Origin: Zymobacter sp. IVIA_12111.31 C1
GTDB lineage: Bacteria > Pseudomonadota > Gammaproteobacteria > Pseudomonadales > Halomonadaceae
Direction: 5' to 3'
DNA length: 64,000 nt
NCBI RefSeq assembly: GCF_047495495.1
Contig: NZ_CP179930.1
Coordinates: forward strand, 1,595,077-1,659,076
The notes below the pieces were generated by a model that searched no databases, was not told the DNA's origin, and saw nothing but the letters and a program-made list of their open reading frames with translations. Made by a program: the position numbers and the translations under genes. Positions 19,129-35,696 of this stretch are shown piece after piece. The stretch's first letter is position 1; every line of letters starts with the position of its first letter.

Positions 19129-19811
19129 TCCTCGCAGAGTATCGCCCACGGCATGGCGCAGTATCACCGCGCCATGCCATGCATCCCCCCTAACCGCCCA
19201 GCTTCTGCCAAAAGCGTGTAGAGGCACCTGGCCTATTCCTACAGACCTTTTCCGCTGGCAGTGCCTCTCGATGAACGGCTAAAAAAGCCAGCCAGTCACC
19301 GTATACTTCGACAGCGCAATGGGGCAACCGTCTGCCCGCATTACGTGCTTCGCCATAACCGTACCTCATGTTCGATACTCACCGGTCGTCATTCACTCCC
19401 CCGTATCGTTGCCCCACCGATAAAGACAGCACTCAAAGAACTCGCTCTCACATTGCTCACCGAGGGGGCACTATGCGCTGTTATAAGAATGTTTCGTTCC
19501 GTTTAAATAAAAACACCCTCTCTTATTTACTTATGTAAACAGCGTTCACCAAGGTAATAACGTCTGAAAGTGTGCATCCAGCGAACCAATATGCACCATG
19601 GCAAAGCGTGCAATCCCCGCGATCTCACATCACGGCGCTTTATTGATCCAGCACCGATATAAGACTGCGATTTATTATCATTAATAAACACACCAATTAT
19701 TTGATTTTAAAAACAAAAATATAAAATGGACTCGGACTTGCCCTGTATGACGTACTGCCTCACGAATAATGTGCATGGCCATTATTCTCGGTGTGATTAT
19801 ATGGAGTCACT

Positions 19812-22839: not shown

Positions 22840-22934
22840 TTCGCCTTATCGGAGCAGGCACACGCCTGCTCCACCCCCTCGCCAGCACTGCACGGCCCTC
22901 GGACCACCATCAGGTCTTACATATATAAGTGCTA

Positions 22935-23060
22935 AGAGCATGTTTCATAATCCTGATACCCTTGTCATTGAAGGAGCTTCAAACCTCAAAATTGCAGTAG
23001 AAACCGTCTATTTTAGAATGGGCAAAAAATCACTCAGGTTATTAAACAATCTCCTAATAC
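22935..23060 (+). repeat. Copy A of a roughly 130-bp repeated intergenic element (second copy at 35569..35696); lies at the left border of the low-GC island
   Basis: About 80% identity to 35569..35696 in the same orientation; both copies begin agagcatgtttcataa and end caggttat.aaac..tctcctaa. Confidence 0.7.
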
Positions 23061-23500
23061 CTTACCGTTAGCCATTATTAACTCCTGAAACAACACTTCA
23101 TGCAGAAGGTGAATTCAACGTCCAGCTCACCGCAAATAATTAGCTCAACGTTATCTCTGTCGCCAGTTTTTTTCAACTTCCAAAGACGTTTACGAGGATG
23201 AGTTATTCAGCATTCGTTACTATCAAAAAAGCACCGCGCACTTGACCTTCAAATTCCTGGAGTTGATTGAGTGCATAAACAACATCATTGCGAAGCACTA
23301 TCCAGTAATATTGGGACAATAGCAGTAATTTTAAAGCCGTTGAAAGTCGAGCTGAGCATTTTGTAGAGTAACTTACTAAATTTATTGAAACACCTTTAAC
23401 TCATTTTTTGTTGAATTCTCTGAACAGTTAGTGACTAAATTAAGATTAATCCGATAAGATGCAGGTATCCCATTTCTAAATCGCCTTACACACGGAGTAT

Positions 23501-25567
23501 GTGATGGTTCAGGATTCCTCCGCATTAGCCCTTTTCTTTCATTCTCATATCGCAAAAAATAATCAATACAACCCTGACTGGGGCAAACACTATCATCAGC
23601 TTGTAGAACAGATTCAAGCCGAAAAACCTAACTTTTCTACGGATACAATTCGACAGATTTGGTACGAGCGCAGCAATGGCATCTCCAGCCTCCGACAGGG
23701 CGGTATGTCGCTGTTTGAATTCGAAACGGCGCAAAAACAGCTGCTCGCTCTCACTCGCATGATGGCAGAAGAGTGTACGCAGGAGAATTACGACCGGGTG
23801 ATTAATCGCCTCATTCAACTTAAAACGGATGGAATATTGAACAAGGCGTACAGGGCTCTCTGCCATCGCGCCTTTGCCGCTCTCTATCCGTCTAAAATTA
23901 CGAATGTCGTAAATATCAGCAATTTTTTTAGCAGTTATAACTACTGTAATAACCGTTTTCAACTTGGTCTTTCAGAGGATCAGAAGTGGTTCGCTCGCAA
24001 CCTTGATCTTAAGAAAACATTGCACCGCGCACTAGGTGATGATGTCGATCCTATCGAACTGAATATGTCACTCTGGCATCTTTATACGCAGGTTATTCAG
24101 AAGAAGAACGATATTGGATTAATTGGGAACGAGTCTACCTGGCCGGAAGACGATCAAGACGAGGAAATTACCACTCCGCAACTGCCAAAAAATACTATCC
24201 TCTATGGTCCGCCAGGCACTGGTAAAACTTACCGCACAATAGATCTGGCCGTACGCGCTTGTGAACCGGCAGCCTACTTGCTTCAAGAAGGTAAGGTGGA
24301 GCATGAAAAACGCCGTGAGCTGAAAAAAATTTATGACCGCCTGATTGCTGAAAAGCGGGTGCGCTTTATCACCTTCCATCAGAGTGTTGGCTATGAAGAG
24401 TTCATCGAAGGGCTAAGAGCAGAGACCACCGACGATGGTGGTGTGCACTACGAAATCAAAGCGGGCATTTTTAAGCAAATTTGTGAAGATGCTGCTTTTG
24501 GTAACGCAGGTGTCCAGCAGAAGCTAGACGAGGCACTTGCCCGCCTGCAAGAACGTTTATCTGAAACTGGAAGCATTACCCTTGAAACGCGACAAGGCAA
24601 AGCCTTCCAACTGGCTTACAAGAGCCAGACCACCTTTAGTATCTTCCCGTCACAATCGAAAAAAGAGGATTTAGAACAGGGTTACAATGCTTATCTCAAG
24701 AATATCAGTCTGGCTTACCAAAACCCTCAGGCGAAGGTACATAATCCGTCATATGTGCGTAGCATCCTTAATCACTTGATTAAACAGGAAGGTTTGCCTC
24801 CCAGTCCACAGGATTCTATATCTGAAAAACGGCAAAACTACGTTTTGATTATTGACGAAATTAACCGAGGCAATATCTCCAAAATCTTTGGCGAACTGAT
24901 CACCCTGATAGAAACCTCTAAACGTGCCGGAGAACCGGAGGCTCTTAGTGTAATGCTTCCCTATTCTTCCACCCCATTTAGCGTGCCGAATAATCTCTAT
25001 TTAATTGGCACCATGAATACCGCTGATCATTCGCTCACGGCATTGGATACTGCCTTGCGCCGCAGATTCGAGTTTGAAGCGATGCTGCCGGATATCGATG
25101 TCTTGAACGATACGGTAATCAAAGGGATTGATTTGCCACGTCTTCTGCAGACTTTGAATGACCGCATTCAGGTGCTGTACGATAGAGAACATACATTAGG
25201 CCATGCCTTTTTCATCCCAGTTGTTCAGGTAAAAAAGGACGAAGAGCTTGCCTTTGAAAGGCTCAAGCGGATTATGCGAAACAAGGTGCTGCCACTGCTG
25301 GAGGAGTACTTCTACAACGACTGGCAAAAAATCCGTATGGTGCTGGGCGACAATCAAAAAAGCGGAAACCCGCACCTACAATTCGTGCGTGAGGTGAAAG
25401 ACCAGAAACAGTTTGCGGATCTTTTTGGCAATAGTGGAACTGAAGATCTGCATGATATCGGTGCCAGTTTCCATTTGGCCTCTGAGATCGACGATGTCTG
25501 GAATAATCCACTCGCCTGGCAACAAATTTATGCGCCCAAAAATAGTAATCCTGGGAGCAGGGAATGA
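23501..25567 (+). CDS. mcrB: McrB-like AAA+ GTPase subunit of a type IV (modification-dependent) restriction system, with an uncharacterised 225-aa N-terminal domain and an extra insertion between Walker A and Walker B
   Basis: GPPGTGKT Walker A; FHQSVGYEEFIEG (McrB signature FHPSYSYEDFIQG); Walker B VLIIDEINRGNISKIFGE; LYLIGTMNTADHSL...ALRRRF; low GC; ATGA overlap with the downstream McrC-like gene. Confidence 0.8.
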   Translation: MMVQDSSALALFFHSHIAKNNQYNPDWGKHYHQLVEQIQAEKPNFSTDTIRQIWYERSNGISSLRQGGMSLFEFETAQKQLLALTRMMAEECTQENYDRVINRLIQLKTDGILNKAYRALCHRAFAALYPSKITNVVNISNFFSSYNYCNNRFQLGLSEDQKWFARNLDLKKTLHRALGDDVDPIELNMSLWHLYTQVIQKKNDIGLIGNESTWPEDDQDEEITTPQLPKNTILYGPPGTGKTYRTIDLAVRACEPAAYLLQEGKVEHEKRRELKKIYDRLIAEKRVRFITFHQSVGYEEFIEGLRAETTDDGGVHYEIKAGIFKQICEDAAFGNAGVQQKLDEALARLQERLSETGSITLETRQGKAFQLAYKSQTTFSIFPSQSKKEDLEQGYNAYLKNISLAYQNPQAKVHNPSYVRSILNHLIKQEGLPPSPQDSISEKRQNYVLIIDEINRGNISKIFGELITLIETSKRAGEPEALSVMLPYSSTPFSVPNNLYLIGTMNTADHSLTALDTALRRRFEFEAMLPDIDVLNDTVIKGIDLPRLLQTLNDRIQVLYDREHTLGHAFFIPVVQVKKDEELAFERLKRIMRNKVLPLLEEYFYNDWQKIRMVLGDNQKSGNPHLQFVREVKDQKQFADLFGNSGTEDLHDIGASFHLASEIDDVWNNPLAWQQIYAPKNSNPGSRE

Positions 25568-26880
25568 CGTCTCATCAAAACTTTACCGTCTTCGAATACG
25601 GGCTTCTGGTTGATGAGAAAGATAGGGGCCGCATAAATAATGCGGTCGTTCTGCCCTCCAAGCTGTTTGAGTGGCTTGAGCAACGGTGCCTGAAAGATGA
25701 CGCGGATAACACTCATCGTCTGCTAACTCTGCGCAGTCGGGGGAATGTAAAAACTCTACAAGTAAAAAATTATGCGGGCGTTATCTCTCTTCCGGGAAAT
25801 GCGTTTATTGAAGTGTTGCCAAAAACGGGGCGGCGTAATGAGAACATTGATATTGCACGTCAGCAGCTTTTGATGATGCTACGTACGCTAAAATCTTTTC
25901 GCCATATTGCCACTTCAGCATCCAGAGTTCGAACCTCGAAGATGCCGCTGATGGATATATTTATTCAGCAATTTATCGATAGCGTACAGCTGATTGTGCG
26001 CCAAGGTCTAAAGCGTGACTATCTACGTCAACAGGACAATTTGTCCTGGATGAAAGGAAAGTTACGGGTCTCTGCTCAATTAAGCAAAAACTGCGTGCGT
26101 CGGGATCGCTTTCAAGTGGAATTTGACGCTTACAGCGCTGAACATCCGGAAAACCGGATACTGAGAACTGCTATCGATAAAATTCGCCGTCAGATCAGCA
26201 ATCCGCAGCTACAACTACAAGTCAATGCGTTACAGGCTCACTTTGACGATATTGCGCCCGTCGGTGATTTTCGCATCGCCTTCGACCTAGTGTGTCTCGA
26301 CCGGCATATGCGTCACTATGAACGTGCCTTGGCGTGGGCGCGACTGATTTTGATGGGGCAGTCTCCCCACTGTATGCAGGGTGACACCAACGCGATTTCA
26401 CTGCTTTTCCCAATGGAAGCTGTGTTTGAATCATTCGTGACTGCATGGATGCGTCATCGTTATAACGATAACTGGCACGTGAAGGCACAGGTGGATTCGC
26501 ACACCTTGGTTCGTCTCAATGGCAAAGGAGTATTTAAGCTTAGGCCCGATATCTGTCTACAACCTCGTGGGAAGTATGGGAAGCAGACGATGATTTGTGA
26601 TGTTAAATGGAAAATGGTGGAGGGTGGAAAGGCAACACTCGAACAGTCGCAGGCTGACCTTTATCAGATGCTAGCCTACGGTGTGAACTATCAGGAGGGA
26701 ACAGGGGATATGCTGCTGATTTATCCTTCACATGAGGGTTTTAGTCAGCCATTACCTCATCCCTATGAATTCAGCCATCAAAAGGAAAACCCACTGCGTT
26801 TATGGGTTGTGCCATTTTTCATTGGTGACAGTTTGCAAAGTTCTGGCCTGCATTTCCCTGATGGGAAAAAATTGATTTAA
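25564..26880 (+). CDS. mcrC: McrC-like nuclease subunit (PD-(D/E)xK) of the McrBC-type restriction system
   Basis: Translationally coupled to the mcrB-like gene; C-terminal nuclease motif RPDICLQ...MICDVKWK (PD..D.K); size 438 aa. Confidence 0.7.
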   Translation: MTSHQNFTVFEYGLLVDEKDRGRINNAVVLPSKLFEWLEQRCLKDDADNTHRLLTLRSRGNVKTLQVKNYAGVISLPGNAFIEVLPKTGRRNENIDIARQQLLMMLRTLKSFRHIATSASRVRTSKMPLMDIFIQQFIDSVQLIVRQGLKRDYLRQQDNLSWMKGKLRVSAQLSKNCVRRDRFQVEFDAYSAEHPENRILRTAIDKIRRQISNPQLQLQVNALQAHFDDIAPVGDFRIAFDLVCLDRHMRHYERALAWARLILMGQSPHCMQGDTNAISLLFPMEAVFESFVTAWMRHRYNDNWHVKAQVDSHTLVRLNGKGVFKLRPDICLQPRGKYGKQTMICDVKWKMVEGGKATLEQSQADLYQMLAYGVNYQEGTGDMLLIYPSHEGFSQPLPHPYEFSHQKENPLRLWVVPFFIGDSLQSSGLHFPDGKKLI

Positions 26881-26948
26881 AATCCCTACTATTCTCTTTC
26901 CCACGGTTAGCCATATCATTGATGGGTAATCCCCTCCCAACACCAAAG

Positions 26949-26990
26949 CGATGTTCACTTTTTGATTAAGTGGACATCGCTGTGCATTTC
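26949..26990. terminator. Bidirectional rho-independent terminator between convergent mcrC-like and membrane-protein genes
   Basis: 10-bp stem cgatgttcac / gtggacatcg with an 11-nt loop, followed by T-rich tracts on both strands. Confidence 0.5.
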
Positions 26991-26994
26991 TTGT

Positions 26995-28179
26995 TTACTT
27001 TTTGGTTTCCACCTGTGGTAACTTTTCAAGTGTAAGCAGTTCCTGATTCTTTACCCTACGGCATTGAGAAACTGCATCCTGAAGTTTGCCACGAACGCTA
27101 TTATCATAGTCAGTATCCAATAGTTGGTATTGAAGACTATCTTTATATGATTGAATGATATTGAGTGGGCAGATAAGACGTATATCTCCGAGTGAATAAA
27201 TTTTTACTGCCTTAAGTAAATAGTATTTGTCATCTGAAGAGCGTACGCCCTGCCAGGCTGAGTCTCTAAAATATTCAGCAGGATATGAGGCGGTCGGCAC
27301 TCCATAAACATAAGGAGTCAGGTCCATTATTCCTGACATCTTAAGGAACATCGTCAGTATCAGAGCCGGCACCATATGCACAAACGTAAAAATGATAAAT
27401 ACTATTCCAGCCATAATTCCACCAGTCATAGTCACCTGATTTAACAAGCTGGTTTGGGTTCTTAACCTGAGGAAAACAATGCTTGGAATAAGTGAAAAAA
27501 TAATCAGAAACATTGATAGTGCTATAACAGTCAATACCTGCCTGATCTCGCCGGTTCCTTCCGGAAACTTCAATGTACGAAGAAATAAATCAAGAGGAAA
27601 AATATATATGCAGGCTGCCAGGGAGAGGAACGTTGGCTGTAAAACATGCATGGAAAGAATATTTTTTATCTTCTTCCCCTCTGTGCTTATCTGTTTACAA
27701 GTAATAGATCTATTGAACCACAGGGCAAGTGTAAAACTACAAAGCCAGATAATACTTAATTGAAGTAACACATTCTGTGCAACTTCTTTTCCTGCGTTGT
27801 GCACGAGGAAAAAATAACCAAAAAATATCAATGTTGATAATAGCGAGGTCAGAAAAACGATTTTGATATTGTTTTCTATCAACTCGTCCCGAAAACTATT
27901 TTCCCTTTTATAGTTAAAAAGAAAGAGTCCCGTCAGTAGAGATGGCATAAACAGCACAATGCAAAAAAGGAGCATGCTGACACAAGCAAAGACCATCAGA
28001 TAACTGAAAAATGATGAAAAGGAGATACTGTCAAGAAAAAGTCCTGTTTGTCCAATACGCGCAAGATGCGACCATACAAACAATACTGCAATAGAAGTTG
28101 ACGCGAACGCAGGTGTAAAAATTGTTAAAAACCAAGTCTGTAGTTTTATAAAGCGTTTATTTATCTCTTTATTTCCCAT
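26995..28179 (-). CDS. Very AT-rich polytopic membrane protein of unknown function (about 8 TM helices plus a 110-aa C-terminal soluble tail)
   Basis: 394-aa ORF, GC about 33%, multiple hydrophobic segments; no motif I recognise; convergent with mcrBC inside the island. Confidence 0.55.
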   Translation of the reverse strand: MGNKEINKRFIKLQTWFLTIFTPAFASTSIAVLFVWSHLARIGQTGLFLDSISFSSFFSYLMVFACVSMLLFCIVLFMPSLLTGLFLFNYKRENSFRDELIENNIKIVFLTSLLSTLIFFGYFFLVHNAGKEVAQNVLLQLSIIWLCSFTLALWFNRSITCKQISTEGKKIKNILSMHVLQPTFLSLAACIYIFPLDLFLRTLKFPEGTGEIRQVLTVIALSMFLIIFSLIPSIVFLRLRTQTSLLNQVTMTGGIMAGIVFIIFTFVHMVPALILTMFLKMSGIMDLTPYVYGVPTASYPAEYFRDSAWQGVRSSDDKYYLLKAVKIYSLGDIRLICPLNIIQSYKDSLQYQLLDTDYDNSVRGKLQDAVSQCRRVKNQELLTLEKLPQVETKK

Positions 28180-28554
28180 ATTCTAGTATCCATCCCAAGT
28201 TTGACACATGGTCTAGCTAATGACTTTATTTTAGGTTATGGCTCACCAACTACTACCTTTCTGATGATTACGTTCAGTTGTTGTCCTTGAGGAAAGTAGC
28301 TCTTCCTACCAGAATCTTACATTCAAACCTATGTAGGTGTTCTATCAATGTGGCCTTATGCCCACTTTAAATGTCTATTTTTTGTACGAATTTTAACTTG
28401 TGGGTACAAGTGCGGGTATAACCCTTTATCCCTAATTTTAAACAACATTGATATCAGTCTATTGGGTGTGAAATTCGAATCCGGCCTTCGCCTCGCTCGA
28501 ACAGGTCAGCGATACCGGATATCAAATAACACAGTGATCACGAGGCCTTTGTGA

Positions 28555-29148
28555 TCAGCCGAACAGTCGACGGTGCATACCGCTGATGATCTCGCGCTCT
28601 TCTTCGAATGATAGATCCAGTGCCATCTGTACCAGAGCCATCTGACGCATTTTCATATAACCAATGTTCTGGTCCTGCGGGATGCCGAAGCTGGTATCGT
28701 TGGGGTCATCGTTGGAACGCTTGCACAGCGAATCATCGCATGAGTTGTAACCAGCACAGGACATGGGGCGCACCGGATAGATGCTGCACTGGCTGTCGAT
28801 CAGGAAAGGACAGCGAACGTTGATGCTGCGCTGTTCCTGATCCCCGAGATCCTTCACGATCGGATAACGCTCGACGATAGCCTCTTTGATCTTCGCCTGC
28901 TGCTCACTGTTCAACTCACGCAGGTAGTAGGCATGGATACTATCCAGTTCGAACTCGTAGGCTTCGATACGCAGGTGGCAACAGTGATCGCAGCCCTTGC
29001 AGCACGCGATCATCTTCGAGTCACTGGCTTCGTCTTCAATAGGCTCCAGCAGCATGCGACTCAGTTCGAAGCGGGCGTCATAGTCCTGCTGCCCGGCCTC
29101 TGCCAACGCACATACCTCGTCAACCTCTTCTCTGTCGATCGTATCCAT
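28555..29148 (-). CDS. YkgJ/UPF0153-family putative zinc/iron-chelating protein. Start at the Met of MDTIDREE; the track ORF extends to 29319
   Basis: CxxCxxCC motif (CKGCDHCC) plus additional C-terminal Cys residues (CPF...C..YP.RP..C). Confidence 0.6.
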   Translation of the reverse strand: MDTIDREEVDEVCALAEAGQQDYDARFELSRMLLEPIEDEASDSKMIACCKGCDHCCHLRIEAYEFELDSIHAYYLRELNSEQQAKIKEAIVERYPIVKDLGDQEQRSINVRCPFLIDSQCSIYPVRPMSCAGYNSCDDSLCKRSNDDPNDTSFGIPQDQNIGYMKMRQMALVQMALDLSFEEEREIISGMHRRLFG

Positions 29149-29788
29149 CGCTTGTCCTGTCCATTTACAGTGGGAAATGACCCTGACCAACCAACAAGCG
29201 CCGCGCTGGGGCAAATCCAACGTGGCGCTTGGCGTCAATGCAGTAGAATGGCGGCAGTATACGACCGACGACCCCAGCCGCGGTGCAGGTGCTGCGTTAC
29301 GACGCACCCTACCGCGCATTTCAGTGCGGCATCCTCCTGCTGCTGCTACAAGCGTGTCACTTCCTCATGGGCACCTAATCTGCGAGACAAGAATATCTAT
29401 TCGGTTAAATCAGAACAGTGATATCAGTGAAACAGGCCAAGATAAACAACTTTGGCCACCGTCCGGGTCTTATTGAGAGCATCCCGCGTGTACGGCATCG
29501 TGAAAATGTGGGTTGATTTTGCCCTGATGCACAACCAACCTGTCATTTTGCAAAGAACCCTTTATTTATCACCCTTTCAGAGTGACGACATCACTTCAAA
29601 GCTACTCGCTTGATATTGGAACCAAAGGTAATCCACCCCCATCTTTGATAGCATCCTATCGGTTATTCTTCTCTTAGATCTACGCAGTTCCCCCCTTCTT
29701 TCTAGGTGCTATAGTCAAAGGATAAGCCTTCCTTTACAGGCATAGGGCCACCCTGTTTCCCCCACTTTCTGCGACTACAGGAGTCACC

Positions 29789-35490: not shown

Positions 35491-35568
35491 GTTAGTGAAC
35501 CAGCACGAGCATCAAGACCCTTCGGCTATTTGCCTCGCAACGCGCCGCATAGCCATGACGCCGCCCTC

Positions 35569-35696
35569 AGAGCATGTTTCATAACCCCAATACCCATGTC
35601 ATTGAAGGGACGTCAAACCCCAAATTGCGGTAGAAGCCTTCTATTGTAGAAAGGGTAAAAGCCCATCACTCAGGTTATAAAACTGTCTCCTAAGAG
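35569..35696 (+). repeat. Copy B of the roughly 130-bp repeated element; its end overlaps the stop codon of the aminotransferase gene on the opposite strand
   Basis: Aligned by eye to 22935..23060; mostly third-position-like AT-to-GC differences in the first 40 bp. Confidence 0.7.

What the first reader, a model, noticed from the sequence alone, without database searches (positions are those of the whole stretch)
22900..28560. Low-GC genomic island carrying an atypical McrBC-like module plus an orphan AT-rich membrane protein
GC content drops from about 62% to about 35-42% immediately after the gabT stop and recovers at about 28.55 kb. The island encodes a translationally coupled McrB-like GTPase and McrC-like PD-(D/E)xK nuclease pair, then a convergent 394-aa 8-TM protein whose GC (about 33%) is lower still, which suggests a separate or older acquisition. 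No integrase, transposase or flanking tRNA gene is visible, so the insertion mechanism is unclear. The left border coincides with one copy of a repeated 130-bp element, and a tRNA 3'-end-like fragment lies at the right border.
Basis: partly seen in the sequence, partly recalled or inferred. Interest (0 to 1): 0.7.

Follow-up and report, generated by a model that had tools for sequence, protein, structure and literature searches.

The report
Captured enterobacterial McrBC defence island fragment
A 5.5-kb low-GC insert in a Zymobacter chromosome is the broken-off end of an enterobacterial genomic island. It carries an intact McrBC-type restriction system and an uncharacterised membrane-protein gene: a clear but fairly ordinary case of horizontally acquired defence DNA.

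Summary
Window 22930-28482 (5,553 bp, 43% GC against 58.1±1.6% elsewhere, z = -9.6) is an insertion between gabT and ykgJ of Zymobacter sp. IVIA_12111.31 C1. Zymobacter palmae has the empty site, with the two genes 164 bp apart.

The insert matches a Klebsiella pneumoniae island segment at 91% nucleotide identity over 5.1 kb. In order, it contains:
- a 66-codon remnant of a DUF4942 gene;
- overlapping mcrB and mcrC with all catalytic motifs intact (dN/dS 0.13-0.15);
- a convergent 394-aa 8-TM gene (dN/dS 0.22-0.29);
- a 190-bp island terminus ending in a 16/17 match to the 3' end of tRNA-Leu (leuX), which I read as an attR remnant.

So it is the distal cargo end of a leuX-type enterobacterial island that arrived without its integrase. 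The "130-bp repeat" is a 119-bp MITE with inverted-repeat ends and a TAA target duplication, most likely inserted later.

The 8-TM protein matches no annotated family and moves independently of McrBC in other genomes. The three genes entered this genome together, not separately. This is a new member of a known kind, of modest interest.

The parts
22930..28482 (.). Inserted DNA (5,553 bp, 43% GC), absent from Zymobacter palmae
   Evidence: BLAST of the Z. palmae locus L097 against the window: homology stops at 22929 and resumes at 28483. GC z = -9.6. The same insert is present in Zymobacter sp. IVIA_5232.4 C2 at 99.2% identity.
22933..23057 (.). 119-bp MITE (22936-23054) flanked by a TAA target-site duplication (22933-22935 and 23055-23057)
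   Evidence: Terminal inverted repeats are GAGCATGTTTCATAAYC and GGTTATKAAACARYCTC. The six copies aligned carry TWA on both sides. Presence or absence differs between the window and Z. palmae at four sites.
23122..23319 (+). Pseudogene remnant: the C-terminal 66 codons of a DUF4942 gene, with an in-frame stop
   Evidence: tblastn with E. coli and Klebsiella DUF4942 proteins: residues 211-276, 45-48% identity, E = 2e-18. A weak PF13708 hit falls on the same ORF in L098.
23504..25567 (+). mcrB: 687 aa. All-helical N-terminal domain (about residues 1-205), a disordered linker, then the AAA+ GTPase (Walker A 235-242, Walker B 451-455, MNTAD 504-508)
   Evidence: Pfam AAA_5 and McrB_lid. PDB 6UT3, T. 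gammatolerans McrB, E = 8e-53. Motifs. AlphaFold model with pLDDT about 90 over residues 10-200. dN/dS 0.13 against Klebsiella.
25564..26880 (+). mcrC: 438 aa, PD-(D/E)xK nuclease partner. Its start overlaps the mcrB stop (ATGA)
   Evidence: PF10117 E = 4e-104. PDB 6UT5_G E = 5e-11. RPD at 327-329 and D346-V-K348. Overlap. dN/dS 0.15.
26995..28179 (-). Gene for a 394-aa protein with 8 predicted TM helices and a C-terminal alpha/beta domain of about 110 aa. Function unknown
28302..28491 (+). Conserved 190-bp terminal segment of enterobacterial leuX-type islands (attR arm)
   Evidence: 80-81% identical to K. pneumoniae L084/L085 and to E. coli ET151. Single copy in 50 E. coli genomes, at the end of a CP4-like island.
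28474..28490 (+). Remnant of the tRNA-Leu (leuX) 3' end: the att core repeat
   Evidence: TTCGAATCCGGCCTTCG matches E. coli K-12 leuX TTCGAGTCCGGCCTTCG at 16/17. The Klebsiella copy matches 17/17.
28483..28491 (.). Right junction: GGCCTTCGC is shared between the island terminus and the Zymobacter target (GGCCATCGC in Z. palmae)
   Evidence: Junction sequences, with the Klebsiella sequence. Klebsiella homology runs to 28491-28494, while Z. palmae homology starts at 28483.

Best explanation
**What it is.** Window 22930-28482 is the distal cargo end of an Enterobacterales integrative island. Such islands insert at tRNA-Leu (leuX) and have the backbone ...DUF932-RadC-CbeA/CbtA-DUF4942-[variable cargo]-attR.

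**How it got here (inferred).**
- The fragment was transferred into an ancestor of several Zymobacter (Halomonadaceae) lineages.
- It joined the chromosome between gabT and ykgJ without its integrase.
- The right junction lies in the att core, at a 9-nt microhomology with one mismatch. The left junction lies inside a truncated DUF4942 gene and shows no homology.
- A resident 119-bp MITE later inserted 3-6 nt inside the left border.

**McrBC (shown: intact and conserved; inferred: mechanism).** The cargo that has stayed intact under purifying selection includes a two-gene type IV, modification-dependent restriction system.
- McrB is expected to form GTP-driven AAA+ hexamers. Its N-terminal all-helical domain would bind the target DNA.
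- That domain may be an inactivated HhH-glycosylase-like base sensor.
- McrC would then dock and cut with its PD-(D/E)xK site.

**The 8-TM gene.** This is an independently mobile single gene for an 8-TM inner-membrane protein with a cytoplasmic C-terminal domain. From the company it keeps, it most likely serves defence or exclusion against other mobile elements. Its mechanism is unknown.
For: **Organism and empty site**
- Exact-protein look-ups name Zymobacter sp. IVIA_12111.31 C1.
- Z. palmae AP018933 and a Logan contig have gabT and ykgJ 164 bp apart.
- The junctions are mapped to the base.

**Foreign origin**
- Window 23182-28284 is 91% identical over 5,114 bp to K. pneumoniae CP163084. There the same mcrB-mcrC-8TM block follows YfjT, DUF932, RadC, CbeA/CbtA and DUF4942.
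- The 90%-identity cluster of McrC spans Duffyella, Hafnia, Citrobacter, Klebsiella, Serratia, Yersinia and others.
- A DUF4942 remnant lies at 23122-23319.
- The 190-bp terminus carries the leuX 3' repeat. In E. coli A33 it closes a CP4-like island.
- In E. coli a related McrBC sits after DUF4942 in islands lying beside nanS/nanC and fim, the chromosomal neighbourhood of leuX.

**Function retained**
- Walker A, Walker B, NxxD and PD...DxK motifs are present.
- Pfam and PDB homology support the assignments.
- dN/dS is 0.13-0.29 for all three genes.
- The island is kept at the same site in Zymobacter lineages whose flanks differ by 6-8%.

**MITE**
- Inverted-repeat ends, the TAA duplication and polymorphic copies are documented.

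**N-terminal domain**
- The model is confident and all-alpha.
- PMC12191111 reports inactivated EndoIII sensors fused to McrB-like GTPases.

**8-TM gene is independent**
- It occurs without McrBC in a Pectobacterium ICE, in Pantoea, in Xenorhabdus and elsewhere. Only the ORF itself aligns at the DNA level.
Against: - No experiment shows that the McrBC restricts anything, or what it targets.
- The joining mechanism is inferred from two junctions. A 9-nt match with one mismatch could be chance.
- Some island-bearing Zymobacter lineages share a MITE copy with the island-free Z. palmae. The history therefore includes either recombination between lineages or loss of that MITE.
- A defence role for the 8-TM protein is guilt by association only. 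PADLOC has no model for it, and in some genomes it sits among ordinary metabolic genes.
Confidence: 0.8

Rival explanations
1. A whole leuX-type island, integrase included, integrated by site-specific recombination into a pseudo-att site (GGCCATCGCC) between gabT and ykgJ. A later deletion then removed everything from attL to codon 210 of DUF4942.
For: The right junction falls exactly in the att core, and the target resembles that core in 8 of 9 bases. This is what an integrase would produce. Islands of this type are known to decay.
Against: No trace of an attL core copy or of any backbone gene remains at the left junction. The deletion would have had to end within 1-2 nt of the original target boundary. 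No Zymobacter contig recovered here carries a longer version.
Confidence: 0.25
2. mcrB, mcrC and the 8-TM gene form one three-component system. The membrane protein would be an obligate partner, for example an effector or anchor.
For: The three genes are adjacent and colinear in Zymobacter and in K. pneumoniae at 86-93% protein identity. All three are under purifying selection.
Against: The 8-TM gene is convergent, not co-transcribed. Related E. coli McrBC pairs (290 genomes) lack it; the two loci examined have an SBD-HNH gene there instead. The 8-TM gene occurs without McrBC in Pectobacterium, Pantoea, Xenorhabdus and on plasmids. Its GC is 8-9 points lower than that of mcrBC.
Confidence: 0.07
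3. The region is ancestral to Zymobacter and was precisely deleted in Z. palmae, so it is not an acquired island.
For: Several Zymobacter lineages with 6-8% flank divergence carry it at the same site.
Against: GC is 15 points below the genome. The block is 91% identical to Klebsiella DNA. It holds a truncated enterobacterial backbone gene and a leuX att remnant. The empty site shows no scar.
Confidence: 0.03
4. The module is a decaying, non-functional remnant that is merely hitch-hiking.
For: It is a fragment of a larger element with a pseudogene at one end. No promoter stands out: 5 promoter-like sites were found against 11 expected by chance.
Against: All three ORFs are full length with catalytic motifs intact. 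dN/dS is 0.09-0.29 even between Zymobacter strains. The ORFs are intact in both Zymobacter genome copies, and the 8-TM ORF also in two diverged metagenome lineages.
Confidence: 0.1

Closest known systems
McrBC type IV restriction system: E. coli K-12 EcoKMcrBC and Thermococcus gammatolerans McrBC (PDB 6UT3-6UT8, 6HZ4)
   Same: Two overlapping genes with mcrB first. McrB has an AAA+ GTPase with Walker A, Walker B and the MNTAD (NxxD) signature plus the McrB lid. McrC has the DUF2357 + PD-(D/E)xK architecture. Best PDB match is TgMcrB at E = 8e-53.
   Different: The N-terminal DNA-binding domain is neither DUF3578/ADAM (EcoK) nor YTH-like (Tg); it is predicted to be all-helical. There are about 50 extra residues between the Walker motifs relative to TgMcrB. 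Scores lie far below the NCBIfam equivalog cut-offs: 119 against 637 for McrB, 98 against 338 for McrC. The target modification is unknown.
'McrB family / McrC family' pair in islands beside nanS/fim (the leuX neighbourhood) of E. coli, e.g. EPEC E2348/69 WP_000249522 and WP_000842795
   Same: Same subfamily: 78% (McrB) and 72% (McrC) protein identity, with the same N-terminal domain. It sits directly after a DUF4942 gene at the distal end of the island.
   Different: In the two E. coli loci examined, a phosphorothioate-DNA-binding HNH endonuclease gene follows McrC, not the 8-TM gene. The E. coli copies lie in intact enterobacterial islands, not in a Halomonadaceae chromosome.
END nucleases and other fusions of an inactivated EndoIII/Ogg sensor (PMC12191111, bioRxiv 2025)
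   Different: No sequence-level link could be shown, and Foldseek found nothing. The paper gives no accession for its McrB fusions, so identity with that group could not be tested.
CP4-57/CP4-6-like tRNA-targeting integrative islands of Enterobacterales (P4-type integrase ... YfjT, DUF932, RadC, CbeA/CbtA, DUF4942, cargo, attR)
   Same: The insert keeps the last backbone gene as a remnant, then the variable cargo slot, then the terminal segment with the tRNA 3' repeat.
   Different: There is no integrase, no attL, no adjacent tRNA gene and no other backbone gene. It is a fragment in a host of a different order.
MITEs derived from IS5-family elements that make 3-bp TNA target duplications (family assignment is from memory, not tested)
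   Same: 119 bp, non-coding, 17-bp imperfect inverted-repeat ends, TWA duplications, insertion polymorphism between close relatives.
   Different: No parent transposase gene was looked for. The family is not named in any library searched here.

Membership tests
McrBC (type IV restriction, McrB GTPase + McrC nuclease) | McrB AAA+ domain with Walker A, Walker B and the GTPase signature NxxD | tested here: met
   GPPGTGKT at 235-242, DEINR at 451-455, MNTAD at 504-508. AAA_5 E = 1e-12 and McrB_lid. 6UT3 E = 8e-53.
McrBC (type IV restriction, McrB GTPase + McrC nuclease) | McrC with the McrBC/DUF2357 region and a PD-(D/E)xK active site | tested here: met
   PF10117 E = 4e-104 over 318/318 model positions. 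RPD at 327-329 and DVK at 346-348. 6UT5_G E = 5e-11.
McrBC (type IV restriction, McrB GTPase + McrC nuclease) | Operon with mcrB directly upstream of mcrC | tested here: met
   4-nt ATGA overlap at 25564-25567.
McrBC (type IV restriction, McrB GTPase + McrC nuclease) | GTP-dependent cleavage of modified DNA | not testable with these tools
   Needs biochemistry or phage and plasmid restriction assays.
EcoKMcrBC orthologue (NCBIfam equivalogs PRK11331 and PRK09736; DUF3578/ADAM reader) | Score above the equivalog cut-off, and a DUF3578 N-terminal 5mC-binding domain | tested here: not met
   McrB 119 bits against a cut-off of 637; McrC 98 against 338. No DUF3578 hit. The N-terminal domain is predicted all-alpha.
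Inactivated EndoIII / HhH-GPD glycosylase-like sensor domain | HhH-GPD two-lobed helical fold | tested here: inconclusive
Inactivated EndoIII / HhH-GPD glycosylase-like sensor domain | Loss of the catalytic Asp/Lys (sensor, not enzyme) | not tested
   No residue-level structural superposition was available. Family-invariant residues are W26, W53, R122, W162 and N187, with no invariant Asp.
tRNA-targeting integrative island (P4-type integrase, leuX) | Tyrosine integrase next to a tRNA gene (attL) | tested here: not met
   No tRNA in the 64 kb. No integrase among the island ORFs.
tRNA-targeting integrative island (P4-type integrase, leuX) | Direct repeat of the tRNA 3' end at the distal border (attR) | tested here: met
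   16/17 match to leuX at 28474-28490, exactly at the junction. The Klebsiella counterpart matches 17/17.
tRNA-targeting integrative island (P4-type integrase, leuX) | Conserved backbone genes (DUF932, RadC, CbeA/CbtA, DUF4942) | tested here: not met
   Only the last 66 codons of DUF4942 survive. The full set is present in the Klebsiella and E. coli counterparts.
MITE | Short non-coding element with terminal inverted repeats, target-site duplication and insertion polymorphism | tested here: met
   119 bp, 17-bp inverted repeats matching at 15/17, TWA duplications at six copies, four sites differing in presence or absence between the window and Z. palmae.
Known anti-phage defence families (PADLOC-DB v2) | Profile match of the 8-TM protein or its distant relatives | tested here: not met
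   No PADLOC hit for the window protein or for six distant family members. Also none in Pfam, NCBIfam or PHROGs.

The most novel reading that the evidence does not exclude
The 8-TM protein may represent an undescribed family of single-gene, membrane-embedded defence or exclusion determinants.
- The family has about 127 clusters at 50% identity and distant homologues on more than 1,200 plasmids, mostly conjugative Escherichia plasmids.
- It has no model in Pfam, NCBIfam, PADLOC or PHROGs.
- It moves as an ORF-sized cassette into defence hot spots.
- On two plasmids examined it is paired head-to-head with a XerC-like tyrosine recombinase.

Second strand: the McrB here may use an inactivated glycosylase fold to sense hypermodified phage bases.
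Probability: 0.25. Interest if true: 0.6.

Novelty: new member of a known kind. Interest (0 to 1): 0.3.

Why it matters
This is a base-resolved example of defence DNA crossing between bacterial orders, Enterobacterales to Halomonadaceae. It moved as a fragment of an integrative island, without the island's own integration machinery, and was then kept under purifying selection.

That shows defence cargo can outlive and outrun its vehicle. It also explains why 'orphan' low-GC islets lacking mobility genes exist.

The work flags two things worth testing:
- A widespread McrBC subfamily (present in EPEC E2348/69 and about 5% of complete E. coli genomes) whose DNA-reading domain is unassigned.
- A widespread uncharacterised membrane-protein family carried on mobile elements.

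In itself the locus is an ordinary defence islet.

Tried and rejected
It was useless for the empty site. The empty site came instead from an exact-protein look-up of ykgJ.
2. The exact look-up of the 427-aa gabT ORF failed because the real start is 4 codons downstream.
3. A homologue search with the McrB N-terminal domain alone gave only 10 fragments. The full-length search was needed.
4. The AlphaFold database library (afdb50) was not available for fold search.
6. Foldseek, a profile search of PDB sequences, relaxed Pfam thresholds and hhalign against E. coli Nth all failed to corroborate the glycosylase-like fold.
7. Rfam found nothing in the island at gathering or E ≤ 1 thresholds. The tRNA-like piece is too short for ARAGORN.
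8. The promoter and terminator scan was uninformative, with fewer promoter-like sites than in shuffled sequence.
9. I considered whether the MITE mediated the insertion and rejected it. It is a single copy with an intact duplication on both sides, so it looks like an ordinary transposition into AT-rich foreign DNA.
10. The supplement of PMC12191111 is not held, so the accessions of its EndoIII-McrB fusions could not be compared.
Full report
**Observation**

GC falls from about 60% to 36-50% just after the gabT stop and recovers near 28.5 kb.
- Over the exact insert (22930-28482, 5,553 bp) GC is 42.95%.
- The 190 other windows of equal size average 58.1% (sd 1.6, minimum 54.4), so z = -9.6.
- Per gene: mcrB 45.8%, mcrC 47.0%, the 8-TM gene 37.7%, intergenic stretches 40-43%, and flanking genes 54-61% with GC3 of 68-72%.
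- The ORFs are as described. mcrB and mcrC overlap by ATGA.
- No tRNA gene and no Rfam family is found in the window.

**Organism and empty site**

- Exact-sequence look-ups name the source as Zymobacter sp. IVIA_12111.31 C1, family Halomonadaceae.
- The ykgJ product is identical in Zymobacter palmae. Its locus (AP018933, L097) and a Logan contig (L100) have ykgJ and gabT only 164 bp apart.
- BLAST places the break at window 22929|22930 and 28482|28483.
- The insert is present, 99.2% identical, in Zymobacter sp. IVIA_5232.4 C2 (L098).
- It is also present at the same ykgJ junction in metagenome-derived lineages whose flanks are 92-94% identical to the window. In those lineages the island parts are 90-97% identical.
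- The gain therefore predates the split of those lineages, or the island has spread among them by flank recombination.

**Where the DNA came from**

- The 8-TM protein has 36 close clusters; all those with organism names are Enterobacterales.
- In K. pneumoniae CP163084 the same mcrB-mcrC-8TM block occurs. Window 23182-28284 aligns to it at 91% identity over 5,114 bp.
- There it lies at the end of an island with YfjT, DUF932, RadC, CbeA/CbtA and DUF4942, a CP4-like backbone.
- The 90%-identity cluster of McrC includes Duffyella, Hafnia, Citrobacter, Klebsiella, Enterobacter, Pectobacterium, Serratia, Yersinia, Lelliottia and Buttiauxella.
- In E. coli, a related pair (74% nucleotide, 72-78% protein identity) is present in 290 of 5,426 complete genomes. 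In the loci examined it again lies directly after DUF4942, in islands beside nanS/nanC and fim, the chromosomal neighbourhood of leuX.

**The two ends of the insert**

*Left end*
- Window 23122-23319 encodes the last 66 residues of a DUF4942 protein with an in-frame stop. The fragment therefore begins inside a truncated backbone gene.

*Right end*
- Window 28302-28491 is 80-81% identical to a 190-bp segment of the Klebsiella island and of E. coli ET151.
- That segment is single copy in 50 E. coli genomes.
- In E. coli A33 it closes a CP4-like island, directly after CbtA and a restriction-endonuclease gene.
- Its last 17 nt, TTCGAATCCGGCCTTCG, match the 3' end of E. coli tRNA-Leu leuX at 16/17. 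The Klebsiella copy matches 17/17.

*Junction*
- Klebsiella homology runs to 28491-28494, whereas Z. palmae homology starts at 28483.
- The two share GGCCTTCGC (GGCCATCGC in Z. palmae).
- The right junction therefore sits in the att core at a 9-nt, one-mismatch microhomology. The left junction shows no homology.
- I infer capture of a fragment, with one junction site-specific or microhomology-mediated and the other illegitimate.
- The alternative is integration of a whole island at a pseudo-att site followed by deletion. It is less parsimonious because no attL core or backbone remains.

**The 130-bp repeat**

- It is a MITE: a 119-bp core at 22936-23054.
- Its inverted-repeat ends are GAGCATGTTTCATAAYC and GGTTATKAAACARYCTC.
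- TAA is duplicated on both sides.
- A second copy lies at about 35.57-35.69 kb.
- Z. palmae has three more copies at sites that are empty in the window (window 15987/15992, 29476/29480, 31054/31067). Each is flanked by TWA.
- The copy at the island border has an intact duplication within foreign sequence. I read it as a later, independent transposition into AT-rich DNA, not as the agent of island insertion.

**McrBC**

*McrC*
- It matches PF10117 end to end (E = 4e-104) and PDB 6UT5_G.
- It has RPD(327-329)...D346-V-K348.

*McrB*
- It has AAA_5 and McrB_lid hits, and Walker A (235-242), Walker B (451-455) and MNTAD (504-508) motifs.
- It is closest to T. gammatolerans McrB (6UT3, E = 8e-53), with about 50 extra residues between the Walker motifs.
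- Such GTPase-domain insertions are reported as frequent in the McrBC census of PMC11090510.

*Relation to EcoKMcrBC*
- Both proteins score far below the NCBIfam equivalog cut-offs. They are family members, not EcoKMcrBC orthologues.
- PADLOC v2 has no matching McrC model.

*Selection*
- dN/dS against Klebsiella is 0.13 for mcrB and 0.15 for mcrC.

**The McrB N-terminal domain**

- Residues 1-205 hit no Pfam family.
- They are conserved across the subfamily down to about 25-30% identity in Vibrio, Photobacterium and Aeromonas. W26, W53, R122, W162 and N187 are invariant.
- AlphaFold2 predicts a confident all-helical domain (pLDDT about 90) followed by a disordered linker.
- Foldseek, a profile search of PDB sequences and hhalign against E. 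coli Nth give no support.
- A 2025 preprint reports inactivated EndoIII/Ogg domains as sensors of hypermodified phage bases and mentions fusions to McrB-like GTPases (PMC12191111).
- I therefore rate a glycosylase-derived base sensor as plausible, roughly even odds, but unproven.

**The 8-TM protein**

- It has eight long helices and a C-terminal alpha/beta domain of about 110 residues (model pLDDT 73).
- The distribution of K/R residues in the loops suggests that both termini, and the C-terminal domain, are cytoplasmic. This is an inference.
- The family is not small: 127 clusters at 50% identity, and homologues of 24-26% identity on 1,271 plasmids, mostly conjugative Escherichia plasmids. 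There are none in phage genomes.
- It is a real gene under purifying selection (dN/dS 0.22-0.29).
- It occurs without McrBC in several settings:
  - in a Pectobacterium ICE next to a CHAT protein;
  - in Pantoea near a KAP NTPase, a deaminase-domain protein, HEPN and ORC/Cdc6-like genes and an integrase;
  - between IS630 fragments in Xenorhabdus;
  - among metabolic genes elsewhere.
- Against Pectobacterium, only the ORF plus 32 upstream bases aligns.
- On an Enterobacter mcr-10 plasmid and a Vibrio plasmid, the distant homologue is divergently paired with a tyrosine recombinase and followed by defence-like genes.
- It is therefore an independently mobile cargo gene that was already next to McrBC in the donor. 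It entered Zymobacter in the same event, not separately.
- Its function is unknown. Defence or exclusion is the best guess from context.

**Verdict**

The finding is correct in substance and now has a mechanism-level explanation for its odd features: no integrase, a tRNA-like scrap at one end and a repeat at the other. It is a new member of known kinds, namely a McrBC type IV system on a fragment of a known island type. Interest is modest. The unassigned McrB reader domain and the uncharacterised membrane-protein family are the parts worth experimental follow-up.

Noticed in passing
window 35566-35693. Also sites 15987/15992, 29476/29480 and 31054/31067, which are empty here but occupied in Z. 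palmae L097.: The 119-bp MITE family is active in Zymobacter. There is a second copy in the window, and Z. palmae has three extra copies within the 20 kb compared, each with a TWA duplication. That is a high local density of insertion polymorphism between close relatives.
   Followed up: partly
window 45301-45458: A perfect heptanucleotide tandem repeat, (GAAGCCA) x 22.6, with 100% matches. It lies between ORFs 44018-45226 and 45894-47012. The period is not a multiple of three, so it could act as a slippage or phase-variation tract.
   Followed up: no
L112 5747-8140 (E. kobei mcr-10 plasmid CP083829); L113 3772-6158 (V. parahaemolyticus pLH214-1); L111 1263-3771 (E. coli IncF plasmid): Distant homologues of the 8-TM protein sit head-to-head with a tyrosine recombinase on plasmids; the gap is 249-250 bp on the Enterobacter and Vibrio plasmids. 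In those two plasmids they are followed by defence-like genes (DUF4411/XRE, TIR, CBASS; WYL, metallohydrolase). Homologues occur on 1,271 PLSDB plasmids.
   Followed up: partly
P0172, P0183, P0204, P0206 (Vibrio, Photobacterium and Motilimonas McrB homologues, 830-846 aa): These relatives carry about 130 extra residues ahead of the helical N-terminal domain, with no Pfam match. If that is a second reader domain, the helical domain may not be the only specificity determinant in the subfamily.
   Followed up: partly
L084 2430-4117; L095 21040-22699; L096 18490-20149: In Klebsiella and E. coli the McrBC block neighbours a phosphorothioate-DNA-binding (SBD) HNH endonuclease gene and a second HNH gene. 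Several modification-dependent nucleases are stacked there. In Klebsiella three unannotated genes (341, 425 and 104 aa) lie between the 8-TM gene and the att segment.
   Followed up: no
window 28555-29319 (-): The mechanical ORF for ykgJ is 254 aa. The product on record, identical in Z. palmae, is 197 aa (28555-29148). The longer N-terminal extension is probably not translated.
   Followed up: partly
window 19400-19800 and 41000-42000: Two further short GC dips, 42% and 45.5%. The second falls in the ORF-free gap 41029-41523. Neither was examined.
   Followed up: no
L101 and L104 (Logan contigs): Two Zymobacter lineages carry the island. L104 also has the MITE copy at window position 29480 that Z. 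palmae has and the window lacks; the L101 contig ends at that same position. This implies either recombination of the island between lineages or precise loss of that MITE copy.
   Followed up: no
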